A stretch of DNA of 64,000 bases. Origin: Candidatus Firestoneibacteriota bacterium (lineage in GTDB: Bacteria > Oederibacteriota > Muellerivitia > Muellerivitales > Muellerivitaceae). Position numbers and translations under genes: made by a program. Below are positions 20,080-59,003 of this stretch, one piece after another (the stretch's first letter is position 1; each line of letters starts with the position of its first letter). The notes under the pieces were generated by a model. It worked only from the letters and a program-made list of their open reading frames with translations. It was not told where the DNA came from and made no database searches. The stretch covers positions 3,759 through 67,758 of the forward strand of contig JABDGD010000009.1 of assembly GCA_013286205.1 (NCBI GenBank). Direction: 5' to 3'.

Positions 20080-20457
20080 CTATTGAGACACAACCGCCGC
20101 GACCGCCGCGGCTACCGTCGGAACCTTCGCTTCAGTTCCTTCTGTGGCAAACCCCGCATCCGCCCAATCCTTTATTCCGCCCGGGTAGTAATTGGCTTTA
20201 AAACCCTTTTCCATCAGGCCCTGCGCCGCGTTAAGACCCGCGTTGCAGGTAAATCCGGCGCAATAGGTAATAAAGAACTTTGTTCTTCCGTACTTTTTTC
20301 CAACCGCCTGAACGAAAGCACTCGTGCTGAGCCCCAACGGAAAGTTTTCTGAGCCGGCGATATGAAGCTTCGCGTAATCGTTGTCTGGCAAAACATTCAG
20401 CACCACAACGTTCGGACCCTTCATCTTTTCAACCACTTCTTCTCTGGTCATCGGCAT
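20080..20457 (-). CDS. Rhodanese-domain sulfurtransferase-like protein
   Basis: The active-site loop is ITYCAGFTCNAG. The listed GTG 20490 lies at the predicted sigma-54 start site, so ATG 20457 (MPMTREEVV, RBS AAGAGG) is used. Confidence 0.65.
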   Translation of the reverse strand: MPMTREEVVEKMKGPNVVVLNVLPDNDYAKLHIAGSENFPLGLSTSAFVQAVGKKYGRTKFFITYCAGFTCNAGLNAAQGLMEKGFKANYYPGGIKDWADAGFATEGTEAKVPTVAAAVAAVVSQ

Positions 20458-20502
20458 GCTTCGCGCCTCTTTCACTTTCCCGTCTCTCACCCCACGAGTT
20501 AA

Positions 20503-20518
20503 AGCAAGGAACGTGCCG
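20503..20518 (-). promoter_or_regulatory. Sigma-54 (-24/-12) promoter
   Basis: The minus strand reads CGGCACGTTCCTTGCT. The GC doublet is 47 nt upstream of ATG 20457. Confidence 0.75.
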
Positions 20519-20559: not shown

Positions 20560-20625
20560 GTCTCAAAAAACATTTTTAAACTTTCAAATCATCGCTTTTC
20601 AAAATTTTTACAAGAGGCCCGGCAA

Positions 20626-20655
20626 CCAAAACGATAGGCGCTCTTCTCATTTCGA
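20626..20655. promoter_or_regulatory. Candidate EBP enhancer (UAS) dyad
   Basis: CCAAAACGA-N12-TCATTTCGA, with 9-mer starts 21 bp apart. It lies about 108 bp upstream of the -24 box of promoter 20503..20518. Confidence 0.5.
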
Positions 20656-20697
20656 TGGGGCGTCATCATGAATAGTGTCCCCGAACGACTCCCATCC

Positions 20698-21027: not shown

Positions 21028-21043
21028 AGCAACTTCCGTACCG
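21028..21043 (-). promoter_or_regulatory. Sigma-54 (-24/-12) promoter
   Basis: The minus strand reads CGGTACGGAAGTTGCT, 56 nt upstream of ATG 20973. Confidence 0.65.
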
Positions 21044-21105
21044 CGGTTAACCCCTCTCTTAATACCGTTATCTGGCTTCTTTTACTGGAAACAGAGCTTC
21101 GACTC

Positions 21106-21135
21106 TCAATTTGATATGCCCAAATTTCATTTTGA
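21106..21135. promoter_or_regulatory. Candidate EBP enhancer (UAS) dyad shared by divergent promoters
   Basis: TCAATTTGA-N12-TCATTTTGA, with starts 21 bp apart. It lies between promoters 21028..21043 (-) and 21191..21206 (+). Confidence 0.65.
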
Positions 21136-21190
21136 TTGTTCCATTAGCCTTTCAAACTCTGTAAACAGCACGTTTAGCCTTGAAAAGCAG

Positions 21191-21206
21191 TGGCTTGCTT
21201 CTTGCT
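21191..21206 (+). promoter_or_regulatory. Sigma-54 (-24/-12) promoter
   Basis: TGGCTTGCTTCTTGCT, 41 nt upstream of ATG 21246. Confidence 0.65.
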
Positions 21207-30200: not shown

Positions 30201-33073
30201 GCCAGCTGCTGCGGGCCCATGAATATTGGCGCATGAAACGCCTATCCGTGGATATTGTGATCCTCAATGAGAAGGCCGCCTCTTATGTACAGGATTTGCA
30301 GACCACGCTTGAGGGTTTAGCGCGCGGCAGTGAAGCCACCTCCGCCGGCAATCCCGATCTGCCTCCGGGCAAAATTTTCGTGCTGCGCAATGACCTCTTG
30401 GATAGCAGGGAAAAAGAACTGCTGCTGACCGTGGCGCGGGCCGTAGTGCACAACCGTCAGGGAACCCTGGCTGAGCAGGTCATGCGGATGCGCAAAACCG
30501 ACCACCACCGTTCCATTCCGGCTAAACGCCATCACGAACTGGAAGCCTTCCGCCTTCAAAACCGCCTCGAAGAGCCTTTGTCCATACCGCCTCTGGAATT
30601 TTTCAACGGTATCGGCGGCTTTGCTCAGGACGGCAAAGAATATGTCATCGTTTTGGATAAGGGCCAAAGAACCCCCGCCCCCTGGGTAAATGTCATTGCC
30701 AACCCGGACTTTGGCTTTCTCGTGTCCGAATCGGGCGCGGGCTATACCTGGTCTCTCAATAGCCGCGAAAACCAAATCACATCCTGGTTTAACGACCCCG
30801 TGGTAGACCCTGTCAGCGAGGCTTTCTTTATCAGCGATCTGGATTCGGAACAGGTTTGGTCGCCCACCGCGTCCCCCATTCGGTTAGAAAATGCTATCTA
30901 TATGGCCCGGCATGGAGCCGGTTACAGTGTTTTCGAGAACAACTCCAATCAGATTCACAGTCAGCTCACCCAATTCGTGGATAAAACCGATCCCATCAAA
31001 ATTTCCAGACTGGTTTTGGAGAACAAATCGGACAAGGACCGCCGCTTGTCCGTCACCGGCTACGTGGAATGGGTTTTGGGCTTTACCCGCAGCAAAACCG
31101 CGCCCTTCATCATCACTGAGAGGGACGAGGAAACCGGCTCGATTTTCGCCACTAATCCCCTGAATATCGAGTTCGGCAGCCGGGTTTCTTTTCTGGGTAT
31201 CAACGCCAACCAAACCAACTGGACCGCTGACCGTTCGGAATTTATCGGCCGAAACGGCTCACTGGAAAGACCCGCCGGCCTCCTGCGCAAAGAAAAACTC
31301 AGCGGTTCCACCGGGGCCGGGCTGGATCCCTGCGGTGCATTGCAGCTGACCATTGAGCTGGCCCCGGGCGAAAAGAAAGAAATTTCCTTTTTCCTTGGAC
31401 AAACCGATAGTCAGGATAGCGCCCGCCGTTTGGTTCAAAAATACCGCCGCGGCGACTTGGAAGCGACTCTTCAAACCGTCACCCAAGCATGGGACAAACT
31501 TTTGGGTAAAACCCAGGTTCAAACCCCCGACCGTTCGATGGATATTTTGCTCAACCGCTGGCTCATGTACCAAACCCTTTCCTGCCGCTTTTGGGCTAGA
31601 ACCGCTTTTTATCAGGCCGGCGGAGCTATTGGCTTCCGCGATCAATTACAAGACTCAATGGCCATCATGACCGTCGACCCCGCTTTGGCCCGTTCCCATA
31701 TTTTAAAAACCGCCGCCCGGCAGTTTTTAGAAGGCGATGCCCAGCATTGGTGGCACCCGCCCACAGGACGGGGCGTGCGCACCCGTATTTCGGATGACCG
31801 GCTTTGGCTTCCCTATGTGGTTATGCATTATTTAAAAACCACGGAAGATCAAACCATTCTGGATGAACTGGTTCCCTTTATTGAAGGCGCGCCTCTGAAA
31901 GATGGTCAGGACGACTCTTATTTTGAACCAGCTGTTTCCCGCGAACCTGCCCTTACCCTTTACGAACATTGCGTCCGCGCCATCAATGTCAGCCTCAAAA
32001 TGGGAATACATGGATTGCCTCTCATGGGCAGCGGCGACTGGAATGACGGCATGAACCGCGTCGGCCACGAAGGCAAAGGTGAAAGTATCTGGCTGGGCTG
32101 GTTCCTCATCGACGTATTAACCCAAATGGCTCCTCTGGCGGGCCAACGCGGCGACACCTCAGCGAAAAACGCCTGGAACGAACAAGCCGCCCGCTTAAAG
32201 ACCGCTTTGGAGACTGATGGCTGGGATGGCGCTTGGTACAAACGCGCTTACTTTGATGACGGCTTTCCTCTGGGATCAAAAGAAAATACGGAGTGCCAGA
32301 TCGACTCTATCGCCCAAACCTGGGCCGTTTTGTCCGGCGCGGGAGATCCCAAAAGGTCGCTTGAAGCTATGCGATCCATGTCGGATCACCTCATCCGCGC
32401 AAAAGACAAACTCATCCTGTTATTTACCCCGCCCTTCAACACCACCCCGAAAGACCCCGGCTACATTAAGGGTTACCTGCCCGGCGTCCGTGAAAACGGC
32501 GGTCAATATACCCACGCGGCCGCCTGGTGTGTTTGCGCCTACGCCAAGATGGGTATGGGCGACAAAGCGGCCGAGTTATTCTCCATGCTTAATCCCATCA
32601 ATCACGCCCTTACCCGAACCAATGTGGGCCTCTATAAATCCGAACCTTATGTGATGGCCGCGGATATTTACGGCCATGCCCCTCATGTGGGCCGCGGCGG
32701 CTGGACCTGGTATACGGGCTCCGCGGGCTGGATGTATCGGTCCGGCGTGGAATTTATTCTGGGAATTGAGCAGCGCGGCAACAAACTGCACTTCAATCCC
32801 TGCATCCCCAAACAATGGTCAGGTTTCAAGGTGATTTATCAACACGGGGCCGAACCCGGCGTGATTCCCCTGGCCGAGCGGAAAGATTTAACCGCGACCA
32901 TTAAAATTCATAAAATTATTAGCACGACTTATGAAATACAATTTGAAAATCCAAACCATGTTTCACAAGGAATTAAACAAATTGAGTTAGATGGCCTTTT
33001 AGTTGGTAACGAAATGTTTGAATTGAAAGACGATCACAAAAATCACGTGGTCAAAGTCACTTTAGGCGCCTGA
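24209..33073 (+). CDS. ndvB: Cyclic beta-1,2-glucan synthase (Cgs/ChvB/NdvB type: membrane GT84 + GH94 phosphorylase-like domains)
   Basis: A single 2954-aa ORF. The GT region has VITLDSDTKLPPG (DxD) and HRWIRGDWQLLPWL, with multiple TM helices. The C-terminal GH94-like blocks are FRDQLQDSMA, GSGDWNDGMNRVG and GGQYTHAAAW. Size and domain order match known Cgs/NdvB proteins. Confidence 0.85.
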   Translation: MIQTLSDLIFRLNSHITALTTRPIEDPIRSELFSSERFDQHARSLAVAQTITDDPKSGTFLTPRLRENEKILQASFRYLTREVQNNKTINPAGEWLIDSFYVVEEQLRDIKRYLPNTFYNELPKLADGFLKGYPRVYGVAWAYVAHTDSRFDAESLSNFVRSYQQVQPLTIGELWALAVTLRIVMIDNLRRIGGYLVTSQEARKDADAFADELLGLVEEPSKNTQPTAAKLKKKSVHPAFLVQLIQRLRYQDPKGIPAVNWLNERLAEKKTTADDIVTSVHNRQSANNQTVRNIITSFRTMSSFDWQTFFELVSPVHKILCSHPNFMLMDFMTRNNYRSAVEELAKGSKKNELEIAHLVIEKAMSADARSERLRDPGYYLLGEGRPAFEKSLGFKVLVKNRVVRFYTDHPATVYIGHVALLTALILTVAELLNPGLSRPLIFTLLILGVFPASDLAVSRVNRFITKLIPPRHLSRFEFLDGPPAGFRTFVVVPTLLGSESDIPDQVEKLEVHFLSNPEGEVHFALLTDFIDSSTELSPDDLQKLTLAELLIESINLKHGPAPDGSPRFFIFHRKRLWNPVEGKWMGWERKRGKLHEFNLLLRGSEPTTYFTPKGQPITVPPGVRYVITLDSDTKLPPGVVSQLVGILAHPLHRAHLDPASNKVVDGYGILQPRVTAFLPSVNEKSIFQKLFSGEGGIDPYASAVSDVYQDLFGEGSFTGKGIYDLDAYETSLKGRIPDNSLLSHDLFEGSFARCGYASDLEFFEEFPSHAEISTVRNHRWIRGDWQLLPWLFGRGKADLSILSRWKMLDNLRRSLSPIAAIGIFLVVFAVPSVRALDWLTLTLFALALPSLITVVEDLAFWRQNLHWRDQLDEIKRDFFLGVGQFAVNLVLLANHAWIHLDAVIRTLWRLWVSHRNLLEWVTAAQAKTAAALTHASFWRRMKGSVAIAAISLTAAIFFNPRALPVCLPFALLWFSAPWIARWISLPESRDKIEPLTPADTEDFRLYSRRIWRFFKTFAQSEDNFLPPDNFQEDPQPAVAHRSSPTNFGLHLLSIVTARDFGWCGLADMTGYVENTLHSLQTLPRYRGHFYNWYDTKTLKPLDPQYISSVDSGNLAGHLLTLAQSCQDLAHQPLFSTEVLAGIQDSLTLFKKSVAELSDHGRTAGTPLSQLQKEVKHLEEKFNEITGAPFGQASAHLESLKLQAETTKDTAHAFASDQRSDETSEMTAWADMVAEDIESHTKDFKQFFSWIDAFSEIGLLTGDTDKEKELQLSIQRLLSSELTLAESPVRYAKAIDQLESLRQLRSSQQERTANEIIFDQLIEALTFSMKNSLDMLKRLKAIAATSIDLFNEMDFGFLLNPKKKLFSVGYRVPEGQLDESCYDLLASEARLTSYVAIIKGDVPVSHWFRLGRGLVADDGDAMLISWSGSMFEYLMPSLIMSTPDGSLLDQTCQRVVERQIQYGHLRGVPWGISESGYNIRDLNLAYQYSNFGVPGLGIKRGLAKDLVIAPYATALASMIDPPKALQNLKRLKSLGATGAYGFYEALDYTITRVREHEKFELVRSYMAHHQGMSLLSFSNVVHDGLLRRRFHMDPLVQAGELLLQERTPRNLGAVREQMKEVEVHKAHEPMLTNFRKIRSPHHPIPSSHLLSNGRYAVMMTAAGSGYSLWKNRAVTRWREDAAKDNYGNYLFLRDIKNGMVWSAAYQPTLVEPLQYETFFSEDQVKISRLDYSIFTDMAVIVSVEDDAELRRITLTNNGSEVREIEITSYAEVVLAPPDTDIAHPAFSNLFIETGFLPNLSALTATRRPRASSDERVFMAQVISSEGETLGEVEYETDRSKFVGRGRHLRKPISVMDGRSLSNTVGPVLDPVMSLRVKVRLQPGASAKVCFTTLVASSEAEMLAMAEKYHNPSAFERSSNLVWTQSKTRLHHLGIDLDEAEIFQKLANRIIFSDPLMRPTSEVLKMNRMNVTGLWSRGISGDLPIVLARIDDLEDQSLIRQLLRAHEYWRMKRLSVDIVILNEKAASYVQDLQTTLEGLARGSEATSAGNPDLPPGKIFVLRNDLLDSREKELLLTVARAVVHNRQGTLAEQVMRMRKTDHHRSIPAKRHHELEAFRLQNRLEEPLSIPPLEFFNGIGGFAQDGKEYVIVLDKGQRTPAPWVNVIANPDFGFLVSESGAGYTWSLNSRENQITSWFNDPVVDPVSEAFFISDLDSEQVWSPTASPIRLENAIYMARHGAGYSVFENNSNQIHSQLTQFVDKTDPIKISRLVLENKSDKDRRLSVTGYVEWVLGFTRSKTAPFIITERDEETGSIFATNPLNIEFGSRVSFLGINANQTNWTADRSEFIGRNGSLERPAGLLRKEKLSGSTGAGLDPCGALQLTIELAPGEKKEISFFLGQTDSQDSARRLVQKYRRGDLEATLQTVTQAWDKLLGKTQVQTPDRSMDILLNRWLMYQTLSCRFWARTAFYQAGGAIGFRDQLQDSMAIMTVDPALARSHILKTAARQFLEGDAQHWWHPPTGRGVRTRISDDRLWLPYVVMHYLKTTEDQTILDELVPFIEGAPLKDGQDDSYFEPAVSREPALTLYEHCVRAINVSLKMGIHGLPLMGSGDWNDGMNRVGHEGKGESIWLGWFLIDVLTQMAPLAGQRGDTSAKNAWNEQAARLKTALETDGWDGAWYKRAYFDDGFPLGSKENTECQIDSIAQTWAVLSGAGDPKRSLEAMRSMSDHLIRAKDKLILLFTPPFNTTPKDPGYIKGYLPGVRENGGQYTHAAAWCVCAYAKMGMGDKAAELFSMLNPINHALTRTNVGLYKSEPYVMAADIYGHAPHVGRGGWTWYTGSAGWMYRSGVEFILGIEQRGNKLHFNPCIPKQWSGFKVIYQHGAEPGVIPLAERKDLTATIKIHKIISTTYEIQFENPNHVSQGIKQIELDGLLVGNEMFELKDDHKNHVVKVTLGA

Positions 33074-33084
33074 GCGAACGGCTC

Positions 33085-33114
33085 TCATTTTGAGAACCCG
33101 GCCTAGCGAAGTGA
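33085..33114. promoter_or_regulatory. Candidate EBP enhancer (UAS), half-degenerate
   Basis: TCATTTTGA-N12-GCGAAGTGA, with starts 21 bp apart. Additional TCAAAAATA and TCAAAACCC 9-mers sit at 33126 and 33138. All lie upstream of promoter 33179. Confidence 0.4.
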
Positions 33115-33178
33115 TAGTCGCCCTCTCAAAAATACCCTCAAAACCCAGCAATAAACGTTTAAACCAAAATCAACAGAC

Positions 33179-33194
33179 TGGTACGCACCTTGCT
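33179..33194 (+). promoter_or_regulatory. Sigma-54 (-24/-12) promoter
   Basis: TGGTACGCACCTTGCT, 50 nt upstream of GTG 33243 (RBS GGGAGG). Confidence 0.7.
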
Positions 33195-34116: not shown

Positions 34117-34452
34117 TTAAACGCCCACAACCCGTAAAATGATGATGCAAAGAGCAATGACCAACACCCAGGTCAAAACTTCACTCGGCCCATCACCCGC
34201 CTTTAAAGCACCCAAATCAGGCGATCCAGCTTGTAAGCTTTTCAACGTCGACTCCTCGGTAGCTTCTAAGGGCCTCGGCGCGTTCGGAAAAGAACCGCCC
34301 GCCTTAAGCGTCAAAAGAGCGCTGTTACTCGCCAGTTCGTTCAATTGCGCGCCTTCTTGCGCCGAAATCGGCACAGGGCCCGCCATGACTTTGTCTGAAA
34401 AGCCAACCAACGCGAAACAAATAGCCGCGACCAGAACTATAATTTTTTTCAT
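34117..34452 (-). CDS. Secreted protein with C-terminal TM anchor
   Basis: ATG 34452 has a strong RBS (AAAGGAGA): MKKIIVLVAAICFALVGFSDKVMA. The C-terminal helix is VLTWVLVIALCIIILRVVGV. Confidence 0.5.
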   Translation of the reverse strand: MKKIIVLVAAICFALVGFSDKVMAGPVPISAQEGAQLNELASNSALLTLKAGGSFPNAPRPLEATEESTLKSLQAGSPDLGALKAGDGPSEVLTWVLVIALCIIILRVVGV

Positions 34453-34678
34453 CACGTCTCCTTTCACGAAATTATTTTCGAAGTACTTCACAACTTCCTG
34501 ACATCTCTATTTTAATAAATTTCACGATAAATACTTAGGGGTACATCGCTTTTATTATTCTCGCTATCAATTTGATAGTTTCTCTTTTGAGAAAAAATTG
34601 GCCATGCTGTTCATTTCCGCGATGACAACTTAAAATACAATTACTTCTCGATCATTTCGTCACACGAAAGCAACCGCT

Positions 34679-35266
34679 ATGAAATTTAAAAAAAATTCTC
34701 ACACTCAATATGTCGGAGCAGTTCTTATATCACTCTCGTTACTTTCACTCAGCTGTGCCACCAGCAACGGACTGAAGACTCTCTCAGACCAGGCGGTTCT
34801 GTTGGATCTTCCCGTGGTGCGCCAAACCGCGCCCAATCTTTGCGGCGAAGTAGCGCTGGAAATGCTGACCCGTTATTACAACGTTCTCTTAACTCCCGAA
34901 CAGGAAGACCGGTTGACAAAAGAAGCGAATCAAAAAGAAGGTATTACGGGCGCGACGTTGAAGGAGGTATTGGAAGAACAGGGCTATTTCGCCGCGGTCT
35001 TTTCGGGCACTTTGACCCGTCAAGTCTCCGGGCTTTACCACCACCTGGACTTAAGACGGCCTTTGATCGTGATGATTGAGGGCGCCGGACCCGACAAGAA
35101 CCATTATGTTTTAGCAGTGGGCTATGACGAAAACACCAATAACATTGTGCTGTTAGACCCGGTTCGGGGTGAGGTAGCGATGTCGGTGATTAACTTCAAG
35201 AAGGCCTGGGGTAAGGTGAACAACTTTACGCTGTTGGCCATGCCCAAGAAACTGAAGAACGAATAG
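34679..35266 (+). CDS. Peptidase C39-like (papain-fold Cys peptidase) lipoprotein
   Basis: The lipobox is LSLLSLSCAT. The putative catalytic triad context is QTAPNLCGEVALEM (Cys), KNHYVLAVGYD (His) and VLLDP (Asp). Confidence 0.55.
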   Translation: MKFKKNSHTQYVGAVLISLSLLSLSCATSNGLKTLSDQAVLLDLPVVRQTAPNLCGEVALEMLTRYYNVLLTPEQEDRLTKEANQKEGITGATLKEVLEEQGYFAAVFSGTLTRQVSGLYHHLDLRRPLIVMIEGAGPDKNHYVLAVGYDENTNNIVLLDPVRGEVAMSVINFKKAWGKVNNFTLLAMPKKLKNE

Positions 35267-35525: not shown

Positions 35526-36185
35526 TTATTTCACAACCGCGATAACGCCTTCTTTTTCCAACTCATCCACAAGAGCGCTGGCGTATGAGTCTACGACTGC
35601 TTCTAAAGAGACACTTCCATCCGCGTCCATCGGCACCTGACTGCCTGAGTCGGCCTTCCAAATGGGCGCGTAGTCCGTTGTATCCACCAGGGTGGTTTGC
35701 ATCTTGTAATGGGCCGTATCAAAGGTATTAACGGTCTCCACGTAATCATAGTGGCGGGTAGAAGCGACTACCGTGCTATTAGGGTCGTTCAATAAATTAA
35801 CCTGAGGGTCCGCCTCATCGCGCGAAATTTTTGAAACCATGGTCACCGCGCTCTGCACAACCTTGGAATCCACAATCTTGATGAAAAGAGCCGCGTCAAA
35901 GCCGTCAGCCTTCACGGTGATCTTCTTTTCATCCTTAGGAACGTTGGTTCCCTGCGGGAAAACATCATAGCTGGCAATAGCGTCAACATTCGCCGCCCGA
36001 AGTTTCTGAACTACAACATCCTCAATGGTTTGCCGAGAATCCATATCCTTCAAATTGGTATGAACGATGATCTTCTTGTAATGCACACCCGATTCAACCC
36101 GGGTGGTGATGTTTCTAAACTGCGTTGAGGCGCAGCCTTCTAAGACCGCCGCCACCAACAGTAAACTCAAAAAGATGTTTTTCAT
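35526..36185 (-). CDS. Lipoprotein of unknown function
   Basis: ATG 36185 gives MKNIFLSLLLVAAVLEGCAST (lipobox). The listed start 36221 is only about 26 nt from the -12 box of promoter 36246. Confidence 0.55.
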   Translation of the reverse strand: MKNIFLSLLLVAAVLEGCASTQFRNITTRVESGVHYKKIIVHTNLKDMDSRQTIEDVVVQKLRAANVDAIASYDVFPQGTNVPKDEKKITVKADGFDAALFIKIVDSKVVQSAVTMVSKISRDEADPQVNLLNDPNSTVVASTRHYDYVETVNTFDTAHYKMQTTLVDTTDYAPIWKADSGSQVPMDADGSVSLEAVVDSYASALVDELEKEGVIAVVK

Positions 36186-36245
36186 TGGAATACCTTTAAA
36201 TTTGAATAGTGAACCCGCCAATTCTACTCCGCGCTTTTATTCAAA

Positions 36246-36261
36246 GGCAAACGAAGTACCA
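36246..36261 (-). promoter_or_regulatory. Sigma-54 (-24/-12) promoter
   Basis: The minus strand reads TGGTACTTCGTTTGCC, 62 nt upstream of ATG 36185. No clear TCAnnnTGA dyad was found upstream. Confidence 0.6.
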
Positions 36262-36499: not shown

Positions 36500-36820
36500 T
36501 TATTTTCGTTTTTTGAGCTTTGTGCTGCGTGAAGAGGGTGCTGAAACAGCGGAGGTACGGCTATCCCAGATAGGCCCGCGCTCGATATGGGACTCTTTTC
36601 GGTCCGGGGATTTCTCTTCATCAGGATAATATCGCGGCACCAGCCGGACACTGCCTCTTGAACTTTTTCTGATCGATCGGACGCGGAGGTTTCCAAAATC
36701 CTCTTCCGCTTTCAGGATTTCCGCTTCCGTATGCGCCTTGGCCATCTCAGGGCTTTTACGAAGAGGTTCACTAATCGGCTCGGTGAACCATTTGATAATT
36801 TTGCTAGTGAGATCAAACAT
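36500..36820 (-). CDS. Conserved hypothetical protein with basic tail (paralog of 39549..39872)
   Basis: 106 aa. The blocks shared with the paralog are KxFxEPxxEPLRKSxEM, RGSVxLxPRYYPxEE, GPxWDxRT and the C-terminal KxKKRK. Confidence 0.55.
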   Translation of the reverse strand: MFDLTSKIIKWFTEPISEPLRKSPEMAKAHTEAEILKAEEDFGNLRVRSIRKSSRGSVRLVPRYYPDEEKSPDRKESHIERGPIWDSRTSAVSAPSSRSTKLKKRK

Positions 36821-36870: not shown

Positions 36871-37173
36871 TTACTTCGAGGCAGGTTCCATCACGTTGGT
36901 AGCCGAAGGGGTCAAGTTGATTCCCCGCGCCGCGGGCATCATCGGCGTCGGTCCCGCAATCACACGAGATGCGTTGATGTTTTGAGGAAAATTCGGTGTC
37001 GGGCTGACCGTCGCTTCCTCAATGGTCGGCGTATATTTGAGCGTCATATCAATATTCCCGTTAGCGTTTTGGGCTTTCGAACAGCCTGTCACCACCAGCG
37101 CCGACAAGATGGCCGCAGACGCCAAACCCACCCGGCGATTTTTAAAAGTCACGAAAGTCTCCATGCTTCTCAA
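36871..37173 (-). CDS. Small lipoprotein
   Basis: 100 aa with lipobox LVVTGCSKAQ. It overlaps the upstream BON gene by 4 nt. Confidence 0.5.
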   Translation of the reverse strand: MRSMETFVTFKNRRVGLASAAILSALVVTGCSKAQNANGNIDMTLKYTPTIEEATVSPTPNFPQNINASRVIAGPTPMMPAARGINLTPSATNVMEPASK

Positions 37174-37412
37174 TGCCGATTGTTATCAAAGGATGAATCA
37201 ATAGGAATGACCCGAACTTGATTGACAATCTTGCGATGGCCAGCAAACTCCCGCACCGCGGTTTCAATGCTTCGCTTTTCTTGAAAATTGTCCGCAATAC
37301 CGTAAATAGTCACTTTATTCTCTTGCACCTTTGCGTGTAGATGCTCTCCCATGTTTCGCAATAGATGAGTGAGAAGAACTTCCAACTCGACTTCCTTGAG
37401 TAAATGCGCCAT
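37170..37412 (-). CDS. Small cytoplasmic BON-domain protein (subtype B)
   Basis: 80 aa with no signal peptide. It reads LEVLLTHLLRNMGEHLHAKVQENKVTIYGIADNFQEKRSIETAVREFAGHRKIVNQVRV. The closest paralog is 40410..40655. Confidence 0.75.
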   Translation of the reverse strand: MAHLLKEVELEVLLTHLLRNMGEHLHAKVQENKVTIYGIADNFQEKRSIETAVREFAGHRKIVNQVRVIPIDSSFDNNRH

Positions 37413-37477: not shown

Positions 37478-37493
37478 AGCAAGAAAAGTGCCA
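37478..37493 (-). promoter_or_regulatory. Sigma-54 (-24/-12) promoter
   Basis: The minus strand reads TGGCACTTTTCTTGCT, a perfect TGGCAC-N5-TTGC. It is 67 nt upstream of ATG 37412. Confidence 0.85.
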
Positions 37494-37565
37494 TGGAGAT
37501 AAAAGAATAAGGCAGGAAATACCCAACAAATCAGGGCATAAATTAGAGCGAATTCTCACATCCCA

Positions 37566-37595
37566 TCAAAATGAGCCTGTCATTTTTCATTTTGA
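37566..37595. promoter_or_regulatory. Candidate EBP enhancer (UAS) dyad
   Basis: TCAAAATGA-N12-TCATTTTGA is an exact inverted repeat with starts 21 bp apart. It lies 73 bp upstream of the -24 box of promoter 37478. Confidence 0.7.
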
Positions 37596-37936
37596 TATGA
37601 CCTCTACCCCAACCGCCTGATCTAACTTATAAATTTTGAGTTTTTGCCAGAGTGCTACTGCCCTGACCGTGTGATCTGACGCGGCTTATCGTTTCAATCT
37701 TTCAAATCGGCCACAGGTCTCACAAAAAACCTTGAAGGTTATCACTTTTTTCTACCGGCCCAAAAGCCGCCGTTTCTTTTAATTTAAATGGAGTGAAATC
37801 AATTCCACCCTTCGAGCCAGGAGGCGTACCTATTAGATCTGACTATTTACTAACACTCAAATCAGCATTTTCCGCTGACCAGGCCGGGAACCCCGTTTCC
37901 CAGGGCTGCTATGCTAAAAGCTCTTTGGGCTCTAAC

Positions 37937-37992: not shown

Positions 37993-39075
37993 TTACGGAG
38001 TTGGGTTTGTGATCGTATTAGACTGCATGGTAACTTGACCTGTCTCCGACAAAGCGCGTCCGCTTAAAGTAGCGCCCGTGTTAAACGCAATCGTCGTGTG
38101 AGCCATAATGGTTCCCACAAAGGAAGATGTGGTGCCTAAAGCGCAGCTGCTGCCCACCTGCCAAAAGATATTAGCGGCGGTAGCGCCGTTAGCCAAAATG
38201 ACATTTCCGCCCGAAGCGGTCGTCAAGGTAGTGCCGATCTGGAAAATAAAGATAGCGTTAGTATTGCCCTGTGCATCCAGAGTCAAATCACCCGTTATTC
38301 CTATTCCACCGGCGGTGTTATAGAGGCCGGGATAAAGCGTTAACCCCCCCAAATCACCTGAAATCGAAGCGGGGTTAAGTCTGCCCGCGGCGTTGTTATA
38401 GGCTGTGGTTAAATCTAACTGCGCATTATCTGCGTTGGTTCCTGTCACAAAACCACCCGTGCATAAAAACACAGGCGCTCCCGAGGCTGACGTGCTGGGC
38501 GACAAACCAATATTGCCGCAAATGGTAGTGGAACCGGTGCTCGTAATACCCGAGTAAGCCAAAACCGCGTAGTGTGCCGCCGAGTTCAAATTCACCGCCG
38601 CCTGGGCTGTCTGTGCGGTGGCCGTAATCGTGGGCGTATAGCTAGCCGTATTAGTCATGGTCTTGGTCGCTGTATTGGTAGTCGTATTGGTCGCCGTGTT
38701 CGTCGCGGTCATTGTCGGCGTAGACGTGTCGGTACTCGTCGCCGTAGACGTCGTGGTATTTGTGGCCGTTAAAGGCGTCACTGTACCCGTGTTCGTCGCC
38801 GTATTGGTGGCCGAGTTGGTAGCCGTATTAGTCGCCGTATTGGTAGTGGTGCGAGTGGCCGTATTAGTGGCCGTTGCAGGTGTAATCGTGCCTGTATTCG
38901 TCGCAGTGTTGGTCATGGTCGCCGTAAAAGTACCTGCTGGCCCAATCACAATAGGAGTCGGGGTGTTATTGGAAGAATCTCCAGGACCCGACGGGTTGGA
39001 TTTACTACCGCAACCGGTGATCAAAACCGCCGGCAACAACGCTGATAAAACTAAAACGCCAATAATTTTTTTCAC
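37993..39075 (-). CDS. DUF3494 (ice-binding-protein fold) lipoprotein with N-terminal (Thr-X)n stalk
   Basis: The lipobox is VLITGCGSK, followed by about 100 aa of T-rich stalk. The DUF3494 blocks are AAHYAVLAYSGITSTGSTTICGNIG, LDLTTAYNNAAGR, GGLTLYPGLY, LDAQGNTNAIFIFQ, NGATAANIFWQVGSS and GRALSETGQVTMQSN. Confidence 0.75.
   Translation of the reverse strand: MKKIIGVLVLSALLPAVLITGCGSKSNPSGPGDSSNNTPTPIVIGPAGTFTATMTNTATNTGTITPATATNTATRTTTNTATNTATNSATNTATNTGTVTPLTATNTTTSTATSTDTSTPTMTATNTATNTTTNTATKTMTNTASYTPTITATAQTAQAAVNLNSAAHYAVLAYSGITSTGSTTICGNIGLSPSTSASGAPVFLCTGGFVTGTNADNAQLDLTTAYNNAAGRLNPASISGDLGGLTLYPGLYNTAGGIGITGDLTLDAQGNTNAIFIFQIGTTLTTASGGNVILANGATAANIFWQVGSSCALGTTSSFVGTIMAHTTIAFNTGATLSGRALSETGQVTMQSNTITNPTP
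38634..38928 (-). repeat. Coding low-complexity tract, (Thr-X)n
   Basis: It encodes TFTATMTNTATNTGTITPATATNTATRTTTNTATNTATNSATNTATNTGTVTPLTATNTTTSTATSTDTSTPTMTATNTATNTTTNTATKTMTNTASYTPTITATA. Confidence 0.8.
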
Positions 39076-39135: not shown

Positions 39136-39151
39136 AGCAAGTAACGTGCCT
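39136..39151 (-). promoter_or_regulatory. Sigma-54 (-24/-12) promoter
   Basis: The minus strand reads AGGCACGTTACTTGCT, 62 nt upstream of ATG 39075. Confidence 0.8.
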
Positions 39152-39354
39152 TGAAATTTTTAAATCAGGATTTCTAGATTTCTGTGACCCGTAAAGGAAA
39201 AATGATTCTTCGGCGCGATGCGGTTTGAGAATTCATTTAAAACCGTAAATTTCTTTATCAAAACGACATTTAAAAAAACCGTCGCCGAATCATTTTTTTA
39301 GGAGCTCCATTACCTAGCAAGTAAAAACGATTTTAAAAACCGATGTCATTTGAA

Positions 39355-39383
39355 TCAAAATGATCCCGGTATTCCCCGTTTGA
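39355..39383. promoter_or_regulatory. Candidate EBP enhancer (UAS) dyad
   Basis: TCAAAATGA-N11-CCCGTTTGA. An additional single TCAAAACGA sits at 39258..39266, 107 bp upstream of the -24 box of promoter 39136. Confidence 0.45.
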
Positions 39384-39548
39384 TCTGGGGATTATCAACA
39401 TATGAACCATTTCATACAAAAAAGCGAACACCTCCGAAAAGGCATTCGCTCTGTTGAAATAATTTCATTCTCTAAAACCGCATCGGCTCCCGCATCGCCG
39501 CAACAGAAAGTCACCTGCCGTTTAAGTGGCATCACGCCACAAAAGCCT

Positions 39549-39872
39549 TTATTTGCGTTTCTTAGGTTTAGATTTTCTAACAGTGTGGGCAGGAAAATTC
39601 ACCGTTCGGGTATCCCATACAGGCCCGTGCCCAATATGCGAATGGCCATGGGCCAAAAAATTTTCTTCATTGGGATAATAGCGCGGCGCAAGCTTTACAC
39701 TGCCTCTATCATTTTTCACGGAGGATCGTTTACGGAGACTTTCGAAATCCCCTTCCTCCTTCATCATTTGGGTCTCAGTTTTGACCCTTACCATCTCCCT
39801 GCTTTTTCTCAGAGGCTCATTGAGCGGTTCATTAAAATATTTATTAATTTTATTCATCAGTTCAATAAACAT
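39549..39872 (-). CDS. Conserved hypothetical protein with basic tail (paralog of 36500..36820)
   Basis: 107 aa: MFIELMNKINKYFNEPLNEPLRKSREM...RGSVKLAPRYYPNEE...GPVWDTRT...KPKKRK. Confidence 0.55.
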   Translation of the reverse strand: MFIELMNKINKYFNEPLNEPLRKSREMVRVKTETQMMKEEGDFESLRKRSSVKNDRGSVKLAPRYYPNEENFLAHGHSHIGHGPVWDTRTVNFPAHTVRKSKPKKRK

Positions 39873-40079: not shown

Positions 40080-40181
40080 CATAAAACATTAGGAAATTGT
40101 GTTACCTTCTCCTCATTTGATCGTGCTGGTTAAGAAAACTATCAACTTGATTGATTGGACCAGCCACCCATAACCCAACCC

Positions 40182-40409: not shown

Positions 40410-40655
40410 TTATTTTCGATGGTTAATAAAAGCCAGATCAACGGGCACTACCCGGATATGATTGCTGACCTTGCGATGCCCTGCGAACTCTTTGACCAGA
40501 GTTTCAATGTCCCGTTTTTCAGTGAAATTAACAGCGGAGCCTGAAAGGGTCACCGTATCGTTTTTGATTGCTACATGCAGATGCTCACCTAAGCCCCGCA
40601 ATTGATGCGCCAACAGGACTTCCAAAGCCAACTCCTTCAACTCTAAACGCGCCAT
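40410..40655 (-). CDS. Small cytoplasmic BON-domain protein (subtype B)
   Basis: 81 aa: LEVLLAHQLRGLGEHLHVAIKNDTVTLSGSAVNFTEKRDIETLVKEFAGHRKVSNHIRV. Confidence 0.75.
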   Translation of the reverse strand: MARLELKELALEVLLAHQLRGLGEHLHVAIKNDTVTLSGSAVNFTEKRDIETLVKEFAGHRKVSNHIRVVPVDLAFINHRK

Positions 40656-42336: not shown

Positions 42337-45300
42337 CGGGACACCACTACTTTCTGCCAATTCGTTTGACCGCTTCCATCAGGGTAAATGACCTTAATCC
42401 GCACGATGTAGATACCCGGCGGCAAATTCCCCACGTTCCAGCAGCCTTGATTGCTGCCAAAATTCAAACTGGCTATCGAAACCCCAATCCAGTCATAAAC
42501 ATCCCAATGACTGGAAAGAATCGGTTTATCAGGGAACAAACACAAATTTCCATTTCTGGAAACCGGCACAGGACACAAAACCGGATTACCCGTAGTGGAC
42601 AGCGGTACGGTGGCCGTAGGCGTGAAAGTCATCGTGATGGTCGGCGAAATCGTTTTAGTGCTGGTGGCCGTATTGGTACGTGTATTGGTGACGGACAGAT
42701 TCACCGTATTAGTCGCCGTATTCGTCGCCGTGATGGTAGCCGTATTGGTAGACGTATTAGTGGCGGTAGCCGTGGCCGAGTTGGTGGCCGTGTTCGTTAC
42801 CGTTAAAGTGTTTACCGTACCCGTATTGGTGGTCGTATTGGTCGCCGTGTTAGTCGCGGTATTGGTAGACGTATTCGTGGACGTGGTCGTTGCTGAGTTC
42901 GTCGCGGTATTCGTGGATGTGTTCGTGGCCGTATTCGTCACCGTCGAGGTATTTACTGTACCCGTATTGGTGGTCGTGTTGGTCGCCGAGTTAGTCGCGG
43001 TATTCGTGGCCGTATTCGTGACTGTTGAAGTGCTGACCGTACCCGTATTAGTGGTCGTATTCGTCGCCGAGTAAGTCGCGGTACTCGTAGCCGAATTCGT
43101 GGCCGTATTCGTAGCCGTTAACGTATTCACTGTACCCGTATTGGTGGTCGTATTCGTCGCTGAGTTAGTGGCGCTATTCGTGGCCGTATTCGTGACCGTT
43201 GAAGTGTTGACCGTACCTGTATTAGTGGTCGTATTCGTCGCCGAGTAAGTCGCGGTATTCGTCACCGTATTCGTGGCCGTATTCGTGACTGTTGAAGTGT
43301 TGACCGTACCCGTATTAGTGATCGTATTCGTCGCTGAGTTAGTGGCGCTATTCGTGGCGGTATTCGTGGAAGTATTCGTAGCTGTTTTGGTGGCGGTATT
43401 CGTGGTAGTCGCGGTGGGCTGAGGAAAATTGGAAACGTCAAACTTAGCCACAAAACCGGAGCCGCTGGAATCGCCTAAGGTTTTCTGATAAGCGGAGGTA
43501 GTGGTCGGAAAATTAGTCGATCCTGCCCGGCCCGTGATATAAGCGTTGCCGGTTGAGTCTAAAGCGATGGCATTGGCCACATCGCCCGTAGTGCCGCCCA
43601 AATAGCTGGAGTAGACCAAACCTACCGTGCCATTAGCGCCCGGATTGAACATACTCAGAAAAGCGTTTTGTACACCCGTCGCGCCGATTGCTGTTTGATA
43701 AGCTCCGCTGGTGGTGGGAAAATTACTCGATTGGGTGTAACCCGTCACGTAAATGTTGGCGTTGCTGTCCAGCGCAATGCCGTTGCCCTGGTCATGATTA
43801 CTGCCGCCTAAATAAGAAGAATAAATCAGGTCCGCGGACCCATGACCGCCCGGATTAATTTCAGTCACAAAAGCCTCAGTGGCGCCGGCCAGAGCCAAAG
43901 TCTTTTGATAGGCCCCGCTGGTGGTAGGAAAATTACTGGAGGAGGTGTTGCCCGTCAGATAAACATTCCGGTTGGCATCCAAAGCGATCGCGCTCACTTG
44001 AATACCATTCGTCGCGTCAAAAAAGGTGGAATAGACCAGGTCCGCGGTTCCTGCGCCCAGGGGGCTGATCTTGGACATAAAAGAGGATGAGCTGCCGCTG
44101 ATCGTGGTCTGATAAGCCCCGCTGGTCGTCGAGAAATTACTATCCCCTGTGGTGCCCGCCACATAAGCGTTGCCGCTGCTATCCACCGCGATACCCGCGC
44201 CGCTGTCGTTATTACTCCCGCCCAAAAAGGTGGAGTAGAGCAAGTCGGATTTGCCGCCGCCGACCGGATTAAACTTGGACACAAACGCGTTATCCCCCGA
44301 ACTCGTGAAAGCGTTATTGGTGACCTGAAAAGCCCCGCTGGTCGTGGGAAAATCCGTGGAGTTGGTAAAGCCCGTTAAATAGGGATGACCGCCGGTGTCC
44401 ATGGTGATGCCGTTGCCCTGATCACCGCTTGAGCCGCCCAGGTAGGTGGAATAAAGAAGACTGGATCCGCTGGCGCTGATTTTACTGAGAAAAGCCTCGG
44501 CGACGCCGGACTTTGCCTGGGCCGGTTGATAGGCCCCGCTGGTGGTTGGAAAATTAGTAGAGGCGGCGGCCCCGGTAAGGTAAGCGTTGTTACTGCTATC
44601 CAGCACGATCGCTGTTCCGTAATCCCGTCCCGACCCGCCCAGGTAGGTGGAATAAACCAAACTCGATCCATCGGCGCTCATCTTGGTGATGAAAACGTTG
44701 GACATATTGCCGTTCACCGTTTGATAAGCCCCGGCGGTCGTGGGAAAATTACTGGAACTGGCCTGGCCCGTCACATAAGCGCTGCCCAGACTATCCACTA
44801 CAATGCCTGAACCAAAGTCGCCGGTGGCGCCGTTGGTACCGCTTAAATAGGTGGAATAGTCCAAAGCGGGATCAATAACGAGAGTCTTGGTTTTGTCGTA
44901 ATCCCCCACCTTAAACCCGATCTCATTGGTTCCCGTCACCACATATTCGCCCGTTACAGTTGTTTTCACGCCATCCACTTCCTGATACATCACGGGAGCC
45001 TTAAAACGCATACCTCGGTCGCCGAGAGTCAGCTGCAAATTACCCTGTCCATCTACGGCGCTGCTATCGGCGCCCGTATGCTGAATTCGAATCACTCCGG
45101 GGTCCGATCCCGGGGCCACCCGGAAATCATATTCCAACTGTCCCTGGGTGCCGTAATAGACCATATCGATTCCGGGATAAACGTCATGAGCGGTCAACTG
45201 GGCGTATTGCTTCAGCCCGTTTTTCCACTGCGTACTGTCTTTGCCCACAAAATAATTGCTAATACCCGCCAATTGATTTTGCGCGTCAAAAATCACCCCG

Positions 45301-45765: not shown

Positions 45766-45781
45766 AGCAAGAACGGTGCCA
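45766..45781 (-). promoter_or_regulatory. Sigma-54 (-24/-12) promoter
   Basis: The minus strand reads TGGCACCGTTCTTGCT, a perfect match, 63 nt upstream of ATG 45704. Confidence 0.85.
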
Positions 45782-45851
45782 CGAAAAGAAATGTCGAAAG
45801 GCCCTGTTTATGGCAAACGGGAACTCAAAAGAAGATATTTGTTTTTTCCAA

Positions 45852-45884
45852 TCAAAATGATGCGGTCCATTTTTTTCATTTTGA
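45852..45884. promoter_or_regulatory. Candidate EBP enhancer (UAS) dyad shared by divergent promoters
   Basis: TCAAAATGA-N15-TCATTTTGA is an exact inverted 9-mer pair with starts 24 bp apart. It lies between promoters 45766 (-) and 45994 (+). Confidence 0.65.
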
Positions 45885-56420: not shown

Positions 56421-56436
56421 AGCAAGTAACGTGCCG
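56421..56436 (-). promoter_or_regulatory. Sigma-54 (-24/-12) promoter
   Basis: The minus strand reads CGGCACGTTACTTGCT, 58 nt upstream of ATG 56364. Confidence 0.8.
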
Positions 56437-56539
56437 TCTCGATTTTAGAAAAACTTCTTTTTGCAACCGCCGCGAATCACGAAAGTGTTGATTTTCATTC
56501 ATAGCGGAATTAGTTTTGAAGCCGTTTTAAAAAGAACTA

Positions 56540-56569
56540 TCAAAACGATCTGGCCGATAATCATTTTGA
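56540..56569. promoter_or_regulatory. Candidate EBP enhancer (UAS) dyad
   Basis: TCAAAACGA-N12-TCATTTTGA, with starts 21 bp apart. It lies 104 bp upstream of the -24 box of promoter 56421. Confidence 0.7.
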
Positions 56570-56590
56570 TTCTGGTGTGAAAAGCACCAA

Positions 56591-58809: not shown

Positions 58810-58825
58810 AGCAAGTACCATGCCC
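58810..58825 (-). promoter_or_regulatory. Sigma-54 (-24/-12) promoter
   Basis: The minus strand reads GGGCATGGTACTTGCT, 37 nt upstream of ATG 58774. Confidence 0.7.
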
Positions 58826-58877
58826 CGTTCCGCAGATCAAATCACGCCCTTTTCGACCAATTCGAATTCACAACCTA

Positions 58878-58906
58878 TCAAACTGATCGCCGCCTTTTCG
58901 TTTTGA
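58878..58906. promoter_or_regulatory. Candidate EBP enhancer (UAS) dyad shared by divergent promoters
   Basis: TCAAACTGA-N11-TCGTTTTGA, lying between promoters 58810 (-) and 59004 (+). Confidence 0.55.
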
Positions 58907-59003
58907 GAGCTAAAGTCGATTTCTTATTCCTCCCCCCCCTCTTAATCCGAGTCTCAAATCATCCGTTATTAAGTCAGGCAAACGATTTAAAGCCCATACC
59001 TTT

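What the first reader, a model, noticed from the sequence alone, without database searches (positions are those of the whole stretch)
37566..37595. Recurrent upstream dyad TCAnnnTGA-N11-15-TCAnnnTGA: candidate enhancer for one dedicated EBP
Upstream of most of the sigma-54 promoters I find two 9-mers of the form TCA-N3-TGA (consensus aTCAAAATGAt / tTCATTTTGAta). Their starts are 20-24 bp apart, and 6 of 11 pairs are exactly 21 bp apart, about two helical turns. The pairs are 20626 CCAAAACGA/TCATTTCGA; 21106 TCAATTTGA/TCATTTTGA; 33085 TCATTTTGA/GCGAAGTGA; 37566 TCAAAATGA/TCATTTTGA; 39355 TCAAAATGA/CCCGTTTGA; 45852 TCAAAATGA/TCATTTTGA; 50359 TCATTGTGA/TCGTATTGA; 53481 TCAATATGA/CCATTTTGA; 56540 TCAAAACGA/TCATTTTGA; 58878 TCAAACTGA/TCGTTTTGA; 62309 TCAAAACAG/TCAAACTGA. 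They lie about 50-210 bp upstream of the -24 boxes, the classic position of bEBP upstream activating sequences. I do not recognise this motif as the site of a characterised activator such as NtrC, NifA, XylR or DctD.
Basis: seen in the sequence. Interest (0 to 1): 0.8.

Follow-up and report, generated by a model that had tools for sequence, protein, structure and literature searches.

The report
Shared enhancer site of sigma-54 regulon
A 32-bp inverted repeat (ATCAAAATGA…TCATTTTGAT) sits at a fixed, helix-phased distance upstream of 16 sigma-54 promoters in this window and of the same genes in related uncultured bacteria. It is very probably the docking site of the one activator protein encoded here, an ordinary kind of element for a regulator nobody has studied.

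Summary
All 11 listed pairs are at the stated coordinates. An unbiased spaced-triplet count puts ATC-N4-TGA and TCA-N3-TGA first among about 12,900 patterns upstream of the sigma-54 promoters.

The unit is better described as ATCA-N3-TGAT. Read from outside to centre, each half is ATCAAAAYGAK, so the site is a ~32-bp inverted repeat with halves usually 21 bp apart.

- Sixteen of 17 intergenic sigma-54 promoters have one, centred 57-125 bp (one 218 bp) upstream.
- 12 of 13 promoter-bearing intergenic regions carry it, against 1 of 27 equally AT-rich others.
- Four divergent promoter pairs share a single dyad.
- Distances are helically phased, and no IHF consensus lies between dyad and promoter.

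The window encodes one activator (XylR_N-V4R-AAA+-HTH_8). All 8 loci fetched around its 64-77% identical orthologues (FCPU426 and Planctomycetota MAGs, up to 64% GC) carry the dyad. In rhodanese-gene upstream regions from six contigs, nearly all invariant positions fall in the two half-sites and the -24/-12 boxes.

Best reading: an upstream activating sequence for this activator, controlling a stress- or envelope-like regulon. Binding is untested. The same core was already predicted for clostridial BldR, so this is a new member of a known kind.

The parts
37565..37596 (.). Dyad given in the finding: ATCAAAATGAG-N10-TTCATTTTGAT, halves 21 bp apart. Its centre is 88 bp upstream of promoter 37493(-).
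37478..37493 (-). Sigma-54 promoter TGGCACTTTTCTTGCT. Drives the BON-domain gene 37170-37412 and the genes after it.
20625..20656 (.). Dyad (spacing 21), 123 bp upstream of promoter 20518(-) (box 20503-20518), which drives the rhodanese gene 20080-20490.
21105..21136 (.). Dyad (spacing 21) shared by divergent promoters 21043(-) (box 21028-21043) and 21191(+) (box 21191-21206).
33084..33115 (.). Dyad (spacing 21, weak right half), 79 bp upstream of promoter 33179(+) (box 33179-33194).
34545..34576 (.). Orphan dyad (2 mismatches, spacing 21) in an intergenic region with no canonical -24/-12 box nearby.
39354..39384 (.). Dyad (spacing 20), 218 bp upstream of promoter 39151(-) (box 39136-39151), which drives the ice-binding-like gene 37993-39075.
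40120..40151 (.).
45851..45885 (.). Dyad (spacing 24) shared by divergent promoters 45781(-) (box 45766-45781; SBBP/OmpA operon) and 45994(+) (box 45994-46009; pirin and GGDEF genes). A third unit lies at 45912-45922.
50358..50391 (.). Dyad (spacing 23), 68 bp upstream of the activator's own promoter 50307(-) (box 50292-50307).
48602..50221 (-). The only sigma-54 activator gene in the window: XylR_N + V4R + Sigma54_activat (GAFTGA) + HTH_8. Recognition helix GVATLYRKLK.
53480..53510 (.). Dyad (spacing 20) shared by divergent promoters 53417(-) (box 53402-53417) and 53571(+) (box 53571-53586).
56539..56570 (.). Dyad (spacing 21, 1 mismatch), 119 bp upstream of promoter 56436(-) (box 56421-56436).
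58877..58907 (.). Dyad (spacing 20) shared by divergent promoters 58825(-) (box 58810-58825; DUF2934 gene) and 59004(+) (box 59004-59019; small ORF then CsbD gene).
62308..62339 (.). Dyad (spacing 21; left half degenerate), 108 bp upstream of promoter 62216(-) (box 62201-62216), which drives an operon of ice-binding-like and outer-membrane barrel genes.

Best explanation
The dyad is the upstream activating sequence (enhancer) of a sigma-54 regulon, recognised by the HTH_8 domain of the XylR_N-V4R activator encoded at 48602-50221.

Proposed mechanism, inferred by analogy with NtrC, XylR and RedR:
1. Each 11-bp half (ATCA-N3-TGAT core, A-rich strand pointing to the centre) binds one dimer of the DNA-binding domain.
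2. The two dimers sit on the same DNA face, two helical turns apart.
3. A signal sensed by the N-terminal XylR_N/V4R domain releases the AAA+ domain.
4. The bound dimers nucleate a hexamer.
5. The hexamer reaches sigma-54 RNA polymerase at the -24/-12 box over a short, helix-phased loop (centre about 60-125 bp upstream, no IHF consensus) and uses ATP to open the promoter.
6. One dyad can serve two divergent promoters.

The regulon includes ice-binding-like secreted proteins, rhodanese, pirin, DUF2934, CsbD and BON proteins, outer-membrane proteins, two diguanylate cyclases and the activator itself.

Shown here: motif, enrichment, geometry, conservation and synteny. Inferred: who binds, stoichiometry, signal and physiology.
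For: - Unbiased enrichment and shuffle controls support the motif.
- 16 of 17 intergenic sigma-54 promoters have a dyad at enhancer distance.
- 12 of 13 promoter-bearing intergenic regions have it, against 1 of 27 others.
- Dyad-to-promoter distances cluster at 57-59, 67-70, 77-81, 87-90, 108-111 and 119-123 bp. Rayleigh p is about 2e-5 at a 10.5-bp period for n=53, and 0.006-0.03 for the window alone.
- No IHF consensus lies in the spacers.
- There is a single activator in the window, with GAFTGA and HTH_8.
- All 8 orthologous loci carry the dyad: 1-5 pairs each, against 0.07-0.9 expected from shuffles. This includes two 64% GC Planctomycetota loci. It often lies directly upstream of the activator or pirin gene. 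Two loci with unrelated activators do not exceed their shuffles (0 and 1 pairs against 0.6 and 0.8 expected).
- Rhodanese-gene upstream regions from six contigs align so that 28 of 31 invariant columns fall in the two half-sites or the -24/-12 boxes.
- In metagenomes, 27 of 82 perfect dyads have an outward sigma-54 promoter 30-300 bp away, against about 6 expected.
- Target families recur across contigs: Ice_binding, rhodanese, pirin, DUF2934.
- The same core is a predicted activator site in Clostridia.
- Activators usually sit on their sites as two dimers (PMC10084136).
Against: - No binding data exist.
- Only 64 kb of the genome is visible, so other activators may be encoded elsewhere.
- Perfect dyads also occur next to response-regulator-type and AcoR-like activators, so the motif alone does not identify this protein.
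- In three orthologous loci (L004, L005, L008) the site upstream of the activator gene is a single unit or a weak pair, and no canonical sigma-54 box follows it. Positive autoregulation is therefore not universal.
- One dyad (34545) has no promoter, and one promoter-like box (36261) has no dyad.
- The phasing statistic pools promoters that may be orthologous and so not independent.
Confidence: 0.75

Rival explanations
1. The dyad is a genuine sigma-54 enhancer, but it is bound by a different activator encoded outside the window. The 48602-50221 protein would then be merely one member of the regulon.
For: - Only part of the genome is visible.
- Perfect dyads lie beside other activator architectures that have a similar 'ATLYRKIK' helix.
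- Clostridial BldR is predicted to use the same core.
Against: - The activator gene and the dyad are adjacent in all 8 orthologous loci across two phyla, including divergent activator-pirin intergenic regions.
- The recognition helix is nearly invariant across these orthologues.
- No second activator is in the window.
Confidence: 0.15
2. The repeat is a site for an architectural or non-activator protein (IHF/HU-like, Fis-like, or a CRP/FNR-type regulator) that modulates these promoters.
For: - ATCAA resembles the IHF core WATCAA and one FNR half-site (own knowledge).
- Crp-family genes lie near the activator in L007 and L008.
Against: - The units do not fit WATCAANNNNTTR, and no such site lies between dyad and promoter.
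- The site is a symmetric pair at two helical turns, placed where the enhancer should be, and no other conserved upstream element exists.
- FNR needs TTGAT-N4-ATCAA, which is the opposite arrangement and a different spacing.
Confidence: 0.06
3. Chance clustering of an AT-rich word in AT-rich intergenic DNA.
For: The motif is A/T-rich, and some listed halves are degenerate (for example GCGAAGTGA and TCAAAACAG).
Against: - Equally AT-rich intergenic regions without sigma-54 promoters lack it.
- The shuffle controls argue against chance.
- It is conserved in 64% GC genomes.
- The cross-contig alignment shows a phylogenetic footprint.
Confidence: 0.01

Closest known systems
Predicted BldR upstream activating sequence of Clostridium (Nie et al. 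2019, PMC6615313, supplementary Table S3)
   Same: - Same core: BldR sites read TGTATCAAAATGATACA, TGTATCATTTTGATACA and TGTATCAAAATGAGAAA.
- Two or three copies 23-28 bp apart.
- Located about 120-250 bp upstream of a sigma-54 promoter.
   Different: - The BldR site is a 17-bp TGT-N11-ACA palindrome. The TGT/ACA flanks are absent here: the outer flank is nC(T/A) in the window and G/A in orthologous loci.
- BldR is reported with one target operon (butA, 2,3-butanediol dehydrogenase). Here there are at least 16 promoters in 44 kb.
- The organisms and, probably, the sensor domain differ.
- The BldR motif is itself only a computational prediction.
XylR/DmpR/MopR/CapR family of aromatic-responsive sigma-54 activators and their sites
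   Same: - Same domain order: XylR_N, V4R, AAA+ with GAFTGA, HTH_8.
- The best full-length solved relative is CapR (6iy8). MopR and PoxR sensor domains also match.
- Cys/His positions in the V4R region are invariant among the 11 orthologues aligned (C135, C161, C169, H170). Whether they match the MopR/PoxR zinc site was not checked.
- The site is a pair of repeats upstream of a sigma-54 promoter.
- The regulator gene lies next to its sites.
   Different: - Only about 35% identity to XylR of pWW0.
- Below every NCBIfam cut-off: MobR 327 bits against 999.
- The recognition helix is VATLYRKLK here and RPAMAYRLKK in XylR.
- The pWW0 xylS-xylR region has no ATCA-N3-TGAT pair.
- The targets are not aromatic catabolism genes.
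NtrC/NifA-type enhancers (TGCACC-N5-GGTGCA; TGT-N10-ACA)
   Same: The logic is the same: dyad sites in tandem on one DNA face, activation at a distance, and hexamer assembly from DNA-bound dimers (own knowledge; PMC10084136).
   Different: - The sequence differs.
- The conserved palindromic core is shorter (11 bp).
- The distances are short and strictly phased, with no IHF consensus.

Membership tests
Bacterial enhancer (upstream activating sequence) of a sigma-54 promoter | Lies roughly 70-250 bp upstream of a -24/-12 (GG-N10-GC) promoter, on the side away from the gene | tested here: met
   16 promoters have a dyad centre 57-125 bp (one 218 bp) upstream of the 5' edge of the box.
Bacterial enhancer (upstream activating sequence) of a sigma-54 promoter | Two or more dyad-symmetric sites spaced by whole helical turns | tested here: met
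   The spacing mode is 21 bp (range 20-24). The two halves are mirror images.
Bacterial enhancer (upstream activating sequence) of a sigma-54 promoter | Specific to sigma-54 promoter regions, not a general feature of intergenic DNA | tested here: met
   Present in 12 of 13 sigma-54 intergenic regions and 1 of 27 others, Fisher p 3e-8, at equal AT content.
Bacterial enhancer (upstream activating sequence) of a sigma-54 promoter | Conserved together with the promoter in orthologous upstream regions | tested here: met
   In the six-contig alignment of rhodanese upstream regions, 28 of 31 invariant columns fall in the two halves or the -24/-12 boxes. All 8 orthologous loci carry the dyad.
Bacterial enhancer (upstream activating sequence) of a sigma-54 promoter | Bound by a cognate activator whose ATPase opens the promoter | not testable with these tools
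   A candidate activator with GAFTGA and HTH_8 is present. Binding needs EMSA, footprinting or DAP-seq.
XylR/DmpR subfamily (protein at 48602-50221) | XylR_N + V4R sensor, AAA+ domain with GAFTGA, C-terminal HTH_8 | tested here: met
   Pfam E-values: XylR_N 6e-24, V4R 8e-9, Sigma54_activat 5e-70, HTH_8 5e-14.
XylR/DmpR subfamily (protein at 48602-50221) | Equivalence to a named regulator (MobR, XylR, DmpR) by curated cut-off | tested here: not met
   NCBIfam MobR scores 327 bits against a cut-off of 999, and no model reaches its cut-off. Identity to XylR is 35%.
XylR/DmpR subfamily (DNA site) | The site resembles the XylR sites of the TOL plasmid | tested here: not met
   No ATCA-N3-TGAT pair in the pWW0 xylS-xylR intergenic region. 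The recognition helices differ.
BldR-type site (TGTATCA-N3-TGATACA) | ATCA-N3-TGAT core with an A/T centre, in tandem copies about 21-28 bp apart | tested here: met
BldR-type site (TGTATCA-N3-TGATACA) | TGT...ACA outer triplets (the NifA/FhlA-like class) | tested here: not met
   Flank frequencies show no TGT/ACA.
IHF site | A single asymmetric WATCAANNNNTTR between enhancer and promoter | tested here: not met
   No match in any of the 16 spacers, and the units are paired and symmetric.

The most novel reading that the evidence does not exclude
This activator family (XylR_N/V4R sensor, 64-77% identical across FCPU426 and Planctomycetota) is a master regulator of a sigma-54-dependent general-stress or envelope-remodelling regulon. 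The regulon would include CsbD, BON, DUF2934, pirin, rhodanese, SOD, Usp and GroESL in some loci, ice-binding-like surface proteins and diguanylate cyclases. Dozens of promoters would be wired through one helix-phased, IHF-independent enhancer. In these uncultured phyla it would fill the role that sigma-S, sigma-B or EcfG play elsewhere, with a sensor domain so far known only from aromatic-compound sensing.
Probability: 0.35. Interest if true: 0.7.

Novelty: new member of a known kind. Interest (0 to 1): 0.5.

Why it matters
The finding gives a concrete, testable regulatory code for lineages with no cultured representatives: a 32-bp site, its cognate activator and a conserved target set.

- A survey of Clostridiales found that 65% of sigma-54 activators control a single operon (PMC6615313). 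One site type in front of at least 16 promoters in 44 kb suggests a global regulon.
- The conserved target set points to a stress or cell-surface programme.
- The tight helical phasing, and the sharing of one site by divergent promoters, make this a clean natural system for studying short-loop, IHF-independent activation.
- With the motif and the promoter model, the whole regulon can be read from any MAG of these phyla.

Tried and rejected
- Rfam at gathering threshold on the window and three loci: nothing.
- The genome-collection scan with the activator returned only one true relative, an FCPU426 MAG.
- Exact-protein look-up of the window's own activator failed, so the organism is inferred only from relatives.
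- A second homologue search seeded with a Planctomycetota orthologue listed its best 120 hits. The only organism names among them were MAGs.
- Literature searches for FCPU426, sigma-54 in Planctomycetes, V4R/XylR_N, sigma-54 general stress, and the motif strings found no description of this regulator or site. The exception is the BldR prediction.
- IHF, FNR, NifA-type and XylR-type sites were considered and rejected on sequence and geometry.
- A repeat or mobile-element origin was rejected because spacers and flanks are not conserved.
- The dyad at 2981-3012 lies inside a VTT-domain gene and has no promoter. I treat it as one of the ~2 chance hits expected.
- The box at 40612(-) lies inside a coding sequence and was dropped.

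Full report
**1. The observation**

The window (64 kb, 49% GC) carries many close matches to the sigma-54 consensus TGGCAC-N5-TTGCW in intergenic DNA from about 20.5 kb onward. Spacings are 21 bp in six cases and 20, 20, 20, 23 and 24 bp in the rest.

- ATC-N4-TGA came first: 24 seen, 2.8 expected, p 7e-15.
- TCA-N3-TGA came second: 15 seen, 1.4 expected.
- 12,894 patterns were tested.

The exact 11-mer ATCA-N3-TGAT occurs nine times in the window, eight of them in intergenic DNA. Pairs of such units with at most three mismatches in total, 19-25 bp apart, number 20. Shuffles that keep local composition give 1.9 on average and never more than 7 in 300 trials. The spacing profile peaks sharply at 20-21 bp.

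**2.

It is not.
- Those regions have the same AT content (0.56 against 0.57) but three- to five-fold fewer units.
- The dyad is in 12 of 13 promoter-bearing intergenic regions and in 1 of 27 others, Fisher p 3e-8.

**3. Refined anatomy**

When each unit is read from the outside of the pair toward its centre, nearly all units read ATCAAAAYGA(T/G). This holds for the window's 24 units and for 24 units from other contigs. The element is therefore a ~32-bp inverted repeat, ATCAAAATGAt-N10-aTCATTTTGAT, not two randomly oriented palindromes. Spacers and flanks are not conserved, so it is not a repeat family or a mobile element.

With a slightly relaxed promoter pattern I count 17 intergenic sigma-54 boxes, and 16 of them have a dyad. 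Its centre lies 57-125 bp upstream of the 5' edge of the box; one lies at 218 bp.

Four dyads sit between divergent promoters and are shared by them:
- 21043(-) and 21191(+)
- 45781(-) and 45994(+)
- 53417(-) and 53571(+)
- 58825(-) and 59004(+)

The box at 36261(-) has no dyad.

**4. Geometry**

The dyad-to-promoter distances are not spread evenly. Pooling the window, the orthologous loci and the metagenome hits, they cluster at 57-59, 67-70, 77-81, 87-90, 108-111 and 119-123 bp.
- Rayleigh p is about 2e-5 at periods of 10.0-10.7 bp for n=53.
- There is no signal at periods of 7, 8, 9, 12 or 13 bp.
- The window alone gives p 0.006-0.03.

Some of these promoters are probably orthologous, so the pooled p-value is optimistic. 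None of the 16 spacers contains the IHF consensus WATCAANNNNTTR. Short spacers with helical phasing are what one expects if the activator must lie on a particular face of the DNA to reach the polymerase without a bending protein.

**5. The activator**

tblastn of the protein at 48602-50221 against the window finds only itself.
- Its domains are XylR_N, V4R, Sigma54_activat and HTH_8.
- It has an intact GAFTGA loop.
- No NCBIfam model reaches its cut-off; the V4R regulator MobR scores 327 bits against 999.
- The best full-length solved relative is the phenol regulator CapR. MopR and PoxR match the sensor domain.
- XylR of the TOL plasmid is 35% identical.

Hundreds of environmental proteins are 63-85% identical to it over their full length. 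The only organism names attached are a candidate division FCPU426 MAG and Planctomycetes/Planctomycetota MAGs. The source organism is therefore probably FCPU426 or a relative, but this is not established.

**6. Comparative evidence**

I fetched DNA around eight orthologues that are 64-77% identical: L001, L004, L005 and L007-L011. Every locus carries the dyad.
- Counts are 1-5 pairs per locus of 8-22 kb, against 0.07-0.9 in shuffles.
- This includes two loci with 64% GC, where an AT-rich 2 x 11-mer is very unlikely by chance.
- Two loci with unrelated activators do not exceed their shuffles: one has a single pair against 0.8 expected and the other has none.

The dyads lie directly upstream of the activator gene, in the divergent activator-pirin spacer, or between divergent sigma-54 promoters for rhodanese, DUF2934 and ice-binding-like genes.

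I aligned the rhodanese-gene upstream regions from the window and five other contigs. Of the 31 invariant columns, 28 fall in the two half-sites or the -24/-12 boxes. The DNA between them has diverged. This is a clear phylogenetic footprint.

A scan of public metagenomes for the perfect dyad returned 82 instances in 80 contigs. Of these, 27 have an outward-facing sigma-54 box 30-300 bp away, against about 6 expected from the box density in the same contigs. Such boxes occur in 4 of 12, 12 of 26, 5 of 14 and 6 of 13 dyads whose halves are 20, 21, 22 and 23 bp apart. None of the 17 dyads at 24 bp has one; 13 of those 17 lie in contigs below 45% GC.

**7. Regulon content**

Downstream of the window's promoters lie:
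- three ice-binding-like (DUF3494) secreted proteins
- a rhodanese
- a pirin-like protein followed by a response-regulator diguanylate cyclase
- a CHASE3-PAS-GGDEF protein
- BON, CsbD and DUF2934 proteins
- OmpA and beta-barrel outer-membrane proteins
- a large SBBP beta-propeller protein
- a DedA/VTT protein
- the activator itself

Clustering the first genes behind 86 dyad-associated promoters in all the DNA held shows families that recur across contigs: ice-binding-like (8 sources), rhodanese (6), pirin (5) and DUF2934 (5). Orthologous loci also hold SOD, YceI, ferritin, Usp, GroES/EL and hemerythrin near the dyads.

This looks like a stress or cell-surface programme. That reading rests on gene names only.

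**8. Comparison with what is known**

The general mechanism is standard. Activators sit on their sites as two dimers and assemble a hexamer on activation (PMC10084136).

XylR: the sequence is not the XylR site. The xylS-xylR region of pWW0 has no such pair, and the recognition helices differ (VATLYRKLK against RPAMAYRLKK).

Other site classes: it is not NifA-like TGT-N10-ACA, not NtrC-like, not FNR-like and not IHF-like.

BldR: the closest precedent is computational. Nie et al. (PMC6615313) predicted TGTATCAAAATGATACA-type sites, two or three copies 23-28 bp apart, for the clostridial activator BldR upstream of butA. The present site has the same core but lacks the TGT/ACA flanks.

Other activators: some perfect dyads in metagenomes lie immediately next to response-regulator-type or AcoR-like activators whose recognition helix is also (A/T)TLYRKI(K/E). 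This DNA specificity therefore appears to be shared by a set of related HTH_8 domains and is not unique to the V4R family.

**9. Verdict**

The interpretation as an enhancer for the window's single activator is well supported by position, symmetry, phasing, specificity, conservation and synteny, but binding has not been shown. I put 0.75 on that reading, 0.15 on another activator using the site, and little on the alternatives.

It is a new member of a known kind. What lifts it above routine is the number of promoters using one site, the conservation across uncultured phyla, and the possibility that it defines a sigma-54-dependent general stress regulon.

Noticed in passing
L004 9800-9880; L005 9870-9945; L007 12525-12600 (not in the window): A conserved ~80-nt non-coding element lies just upstream of the activator orthologue in related genomes. 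It reads CCCGGCCCCGG[AC]GAATGTCC...GAATCCGAACCAAG...TTTGGTTCAACC[AC]ACTCGGCCTTTT. It matches no Rfam family and is absent from the window. It may be a small RNA or a leader.
   Followed up: partly
window 34545-34576: An orphan dyad (2 mismatches, spacing 21) lies between genes 34117-34491(-) and 34679-35266(+), with no canonical GG-N10-GC box nearby. It may be a repressive or decoy site, or serve a non-canonical promoter.
   Followed up: partly
window 36246-36261 (-): A sigma-54-like box, TGGTACTTCGTTTGCC, lies upstream of lipoprotein gene 35526-36221 with no dyad within 260 bp. It may not be a real promoter.
   Followed up: partly
L013, L052, L062, L120 (metagenome contigs): Perfect copies of the same dyad lie directly beside other activator types: response-regulator-type, and AcoR-like in a 29% GC contig. 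Three of the four have the recognition helix (A/T)TLYRKI(K/E); L013 has ATIYRMLK. This suggests a DNA specificity shared by a clade of HTH_8 domains.
   Followed up: partly
window 36500-36820(-) and 39549-39872(-); 37170-37412(-) and 40410-40655(-): Two pairs of paralogous small genes lie inside different sigma-54 operons. One pair encodes 106/107-aa proteins ending in KKRK with a PRYYP-EE motif and no Pfam match. The other pair encodes ~80-aa proteins; the 37170-37412 copy matches Pfam BON, and its paralogue 40410-40655 was not scanned.
   Followed up: no
window 38300-38900 and 42500-43300: Long Thr/Asn/Ala-rich low-complexity linkers (TNTATNTATNS...) occur in the ice-binding-like protein 37993-39075 and in the 1123-aa SBBP protein. 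They create long spurious ORFs on the opposite strand.
   Followed up: no
window 24209-33073 (+): A single 2954-aa ORF lies immediately upstream of the 33084 dyad. From memory it resembles cyclic beta-1,2-glucan synthase or glycoside phosphorylase giants. I did not test this with any tool.
   Followed up: no
window 46956-48473(+) and 51101-52627(-): Two diguanylate cyclases (receiver-GGDEF-HEAT and CHASE3-PAS-GGDEF) flank the activator gene and lie in dyad-controlled operons. This hints at a link between the regulon and c-di-GMP signalling.
   Followed up: no
window 50434-51081(-); L004 8972-9688; L008 9062-9661: A DedA/VTT-domain gene lies directly upstream of the activator gene in the window and in two orthologous loci. 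Pirin lies next to the activator in the window and in five distinct orthologous loci (L004, L005, L008, L010, L011). This is conserved synteny beyond the dyad.
   Followed up: partly
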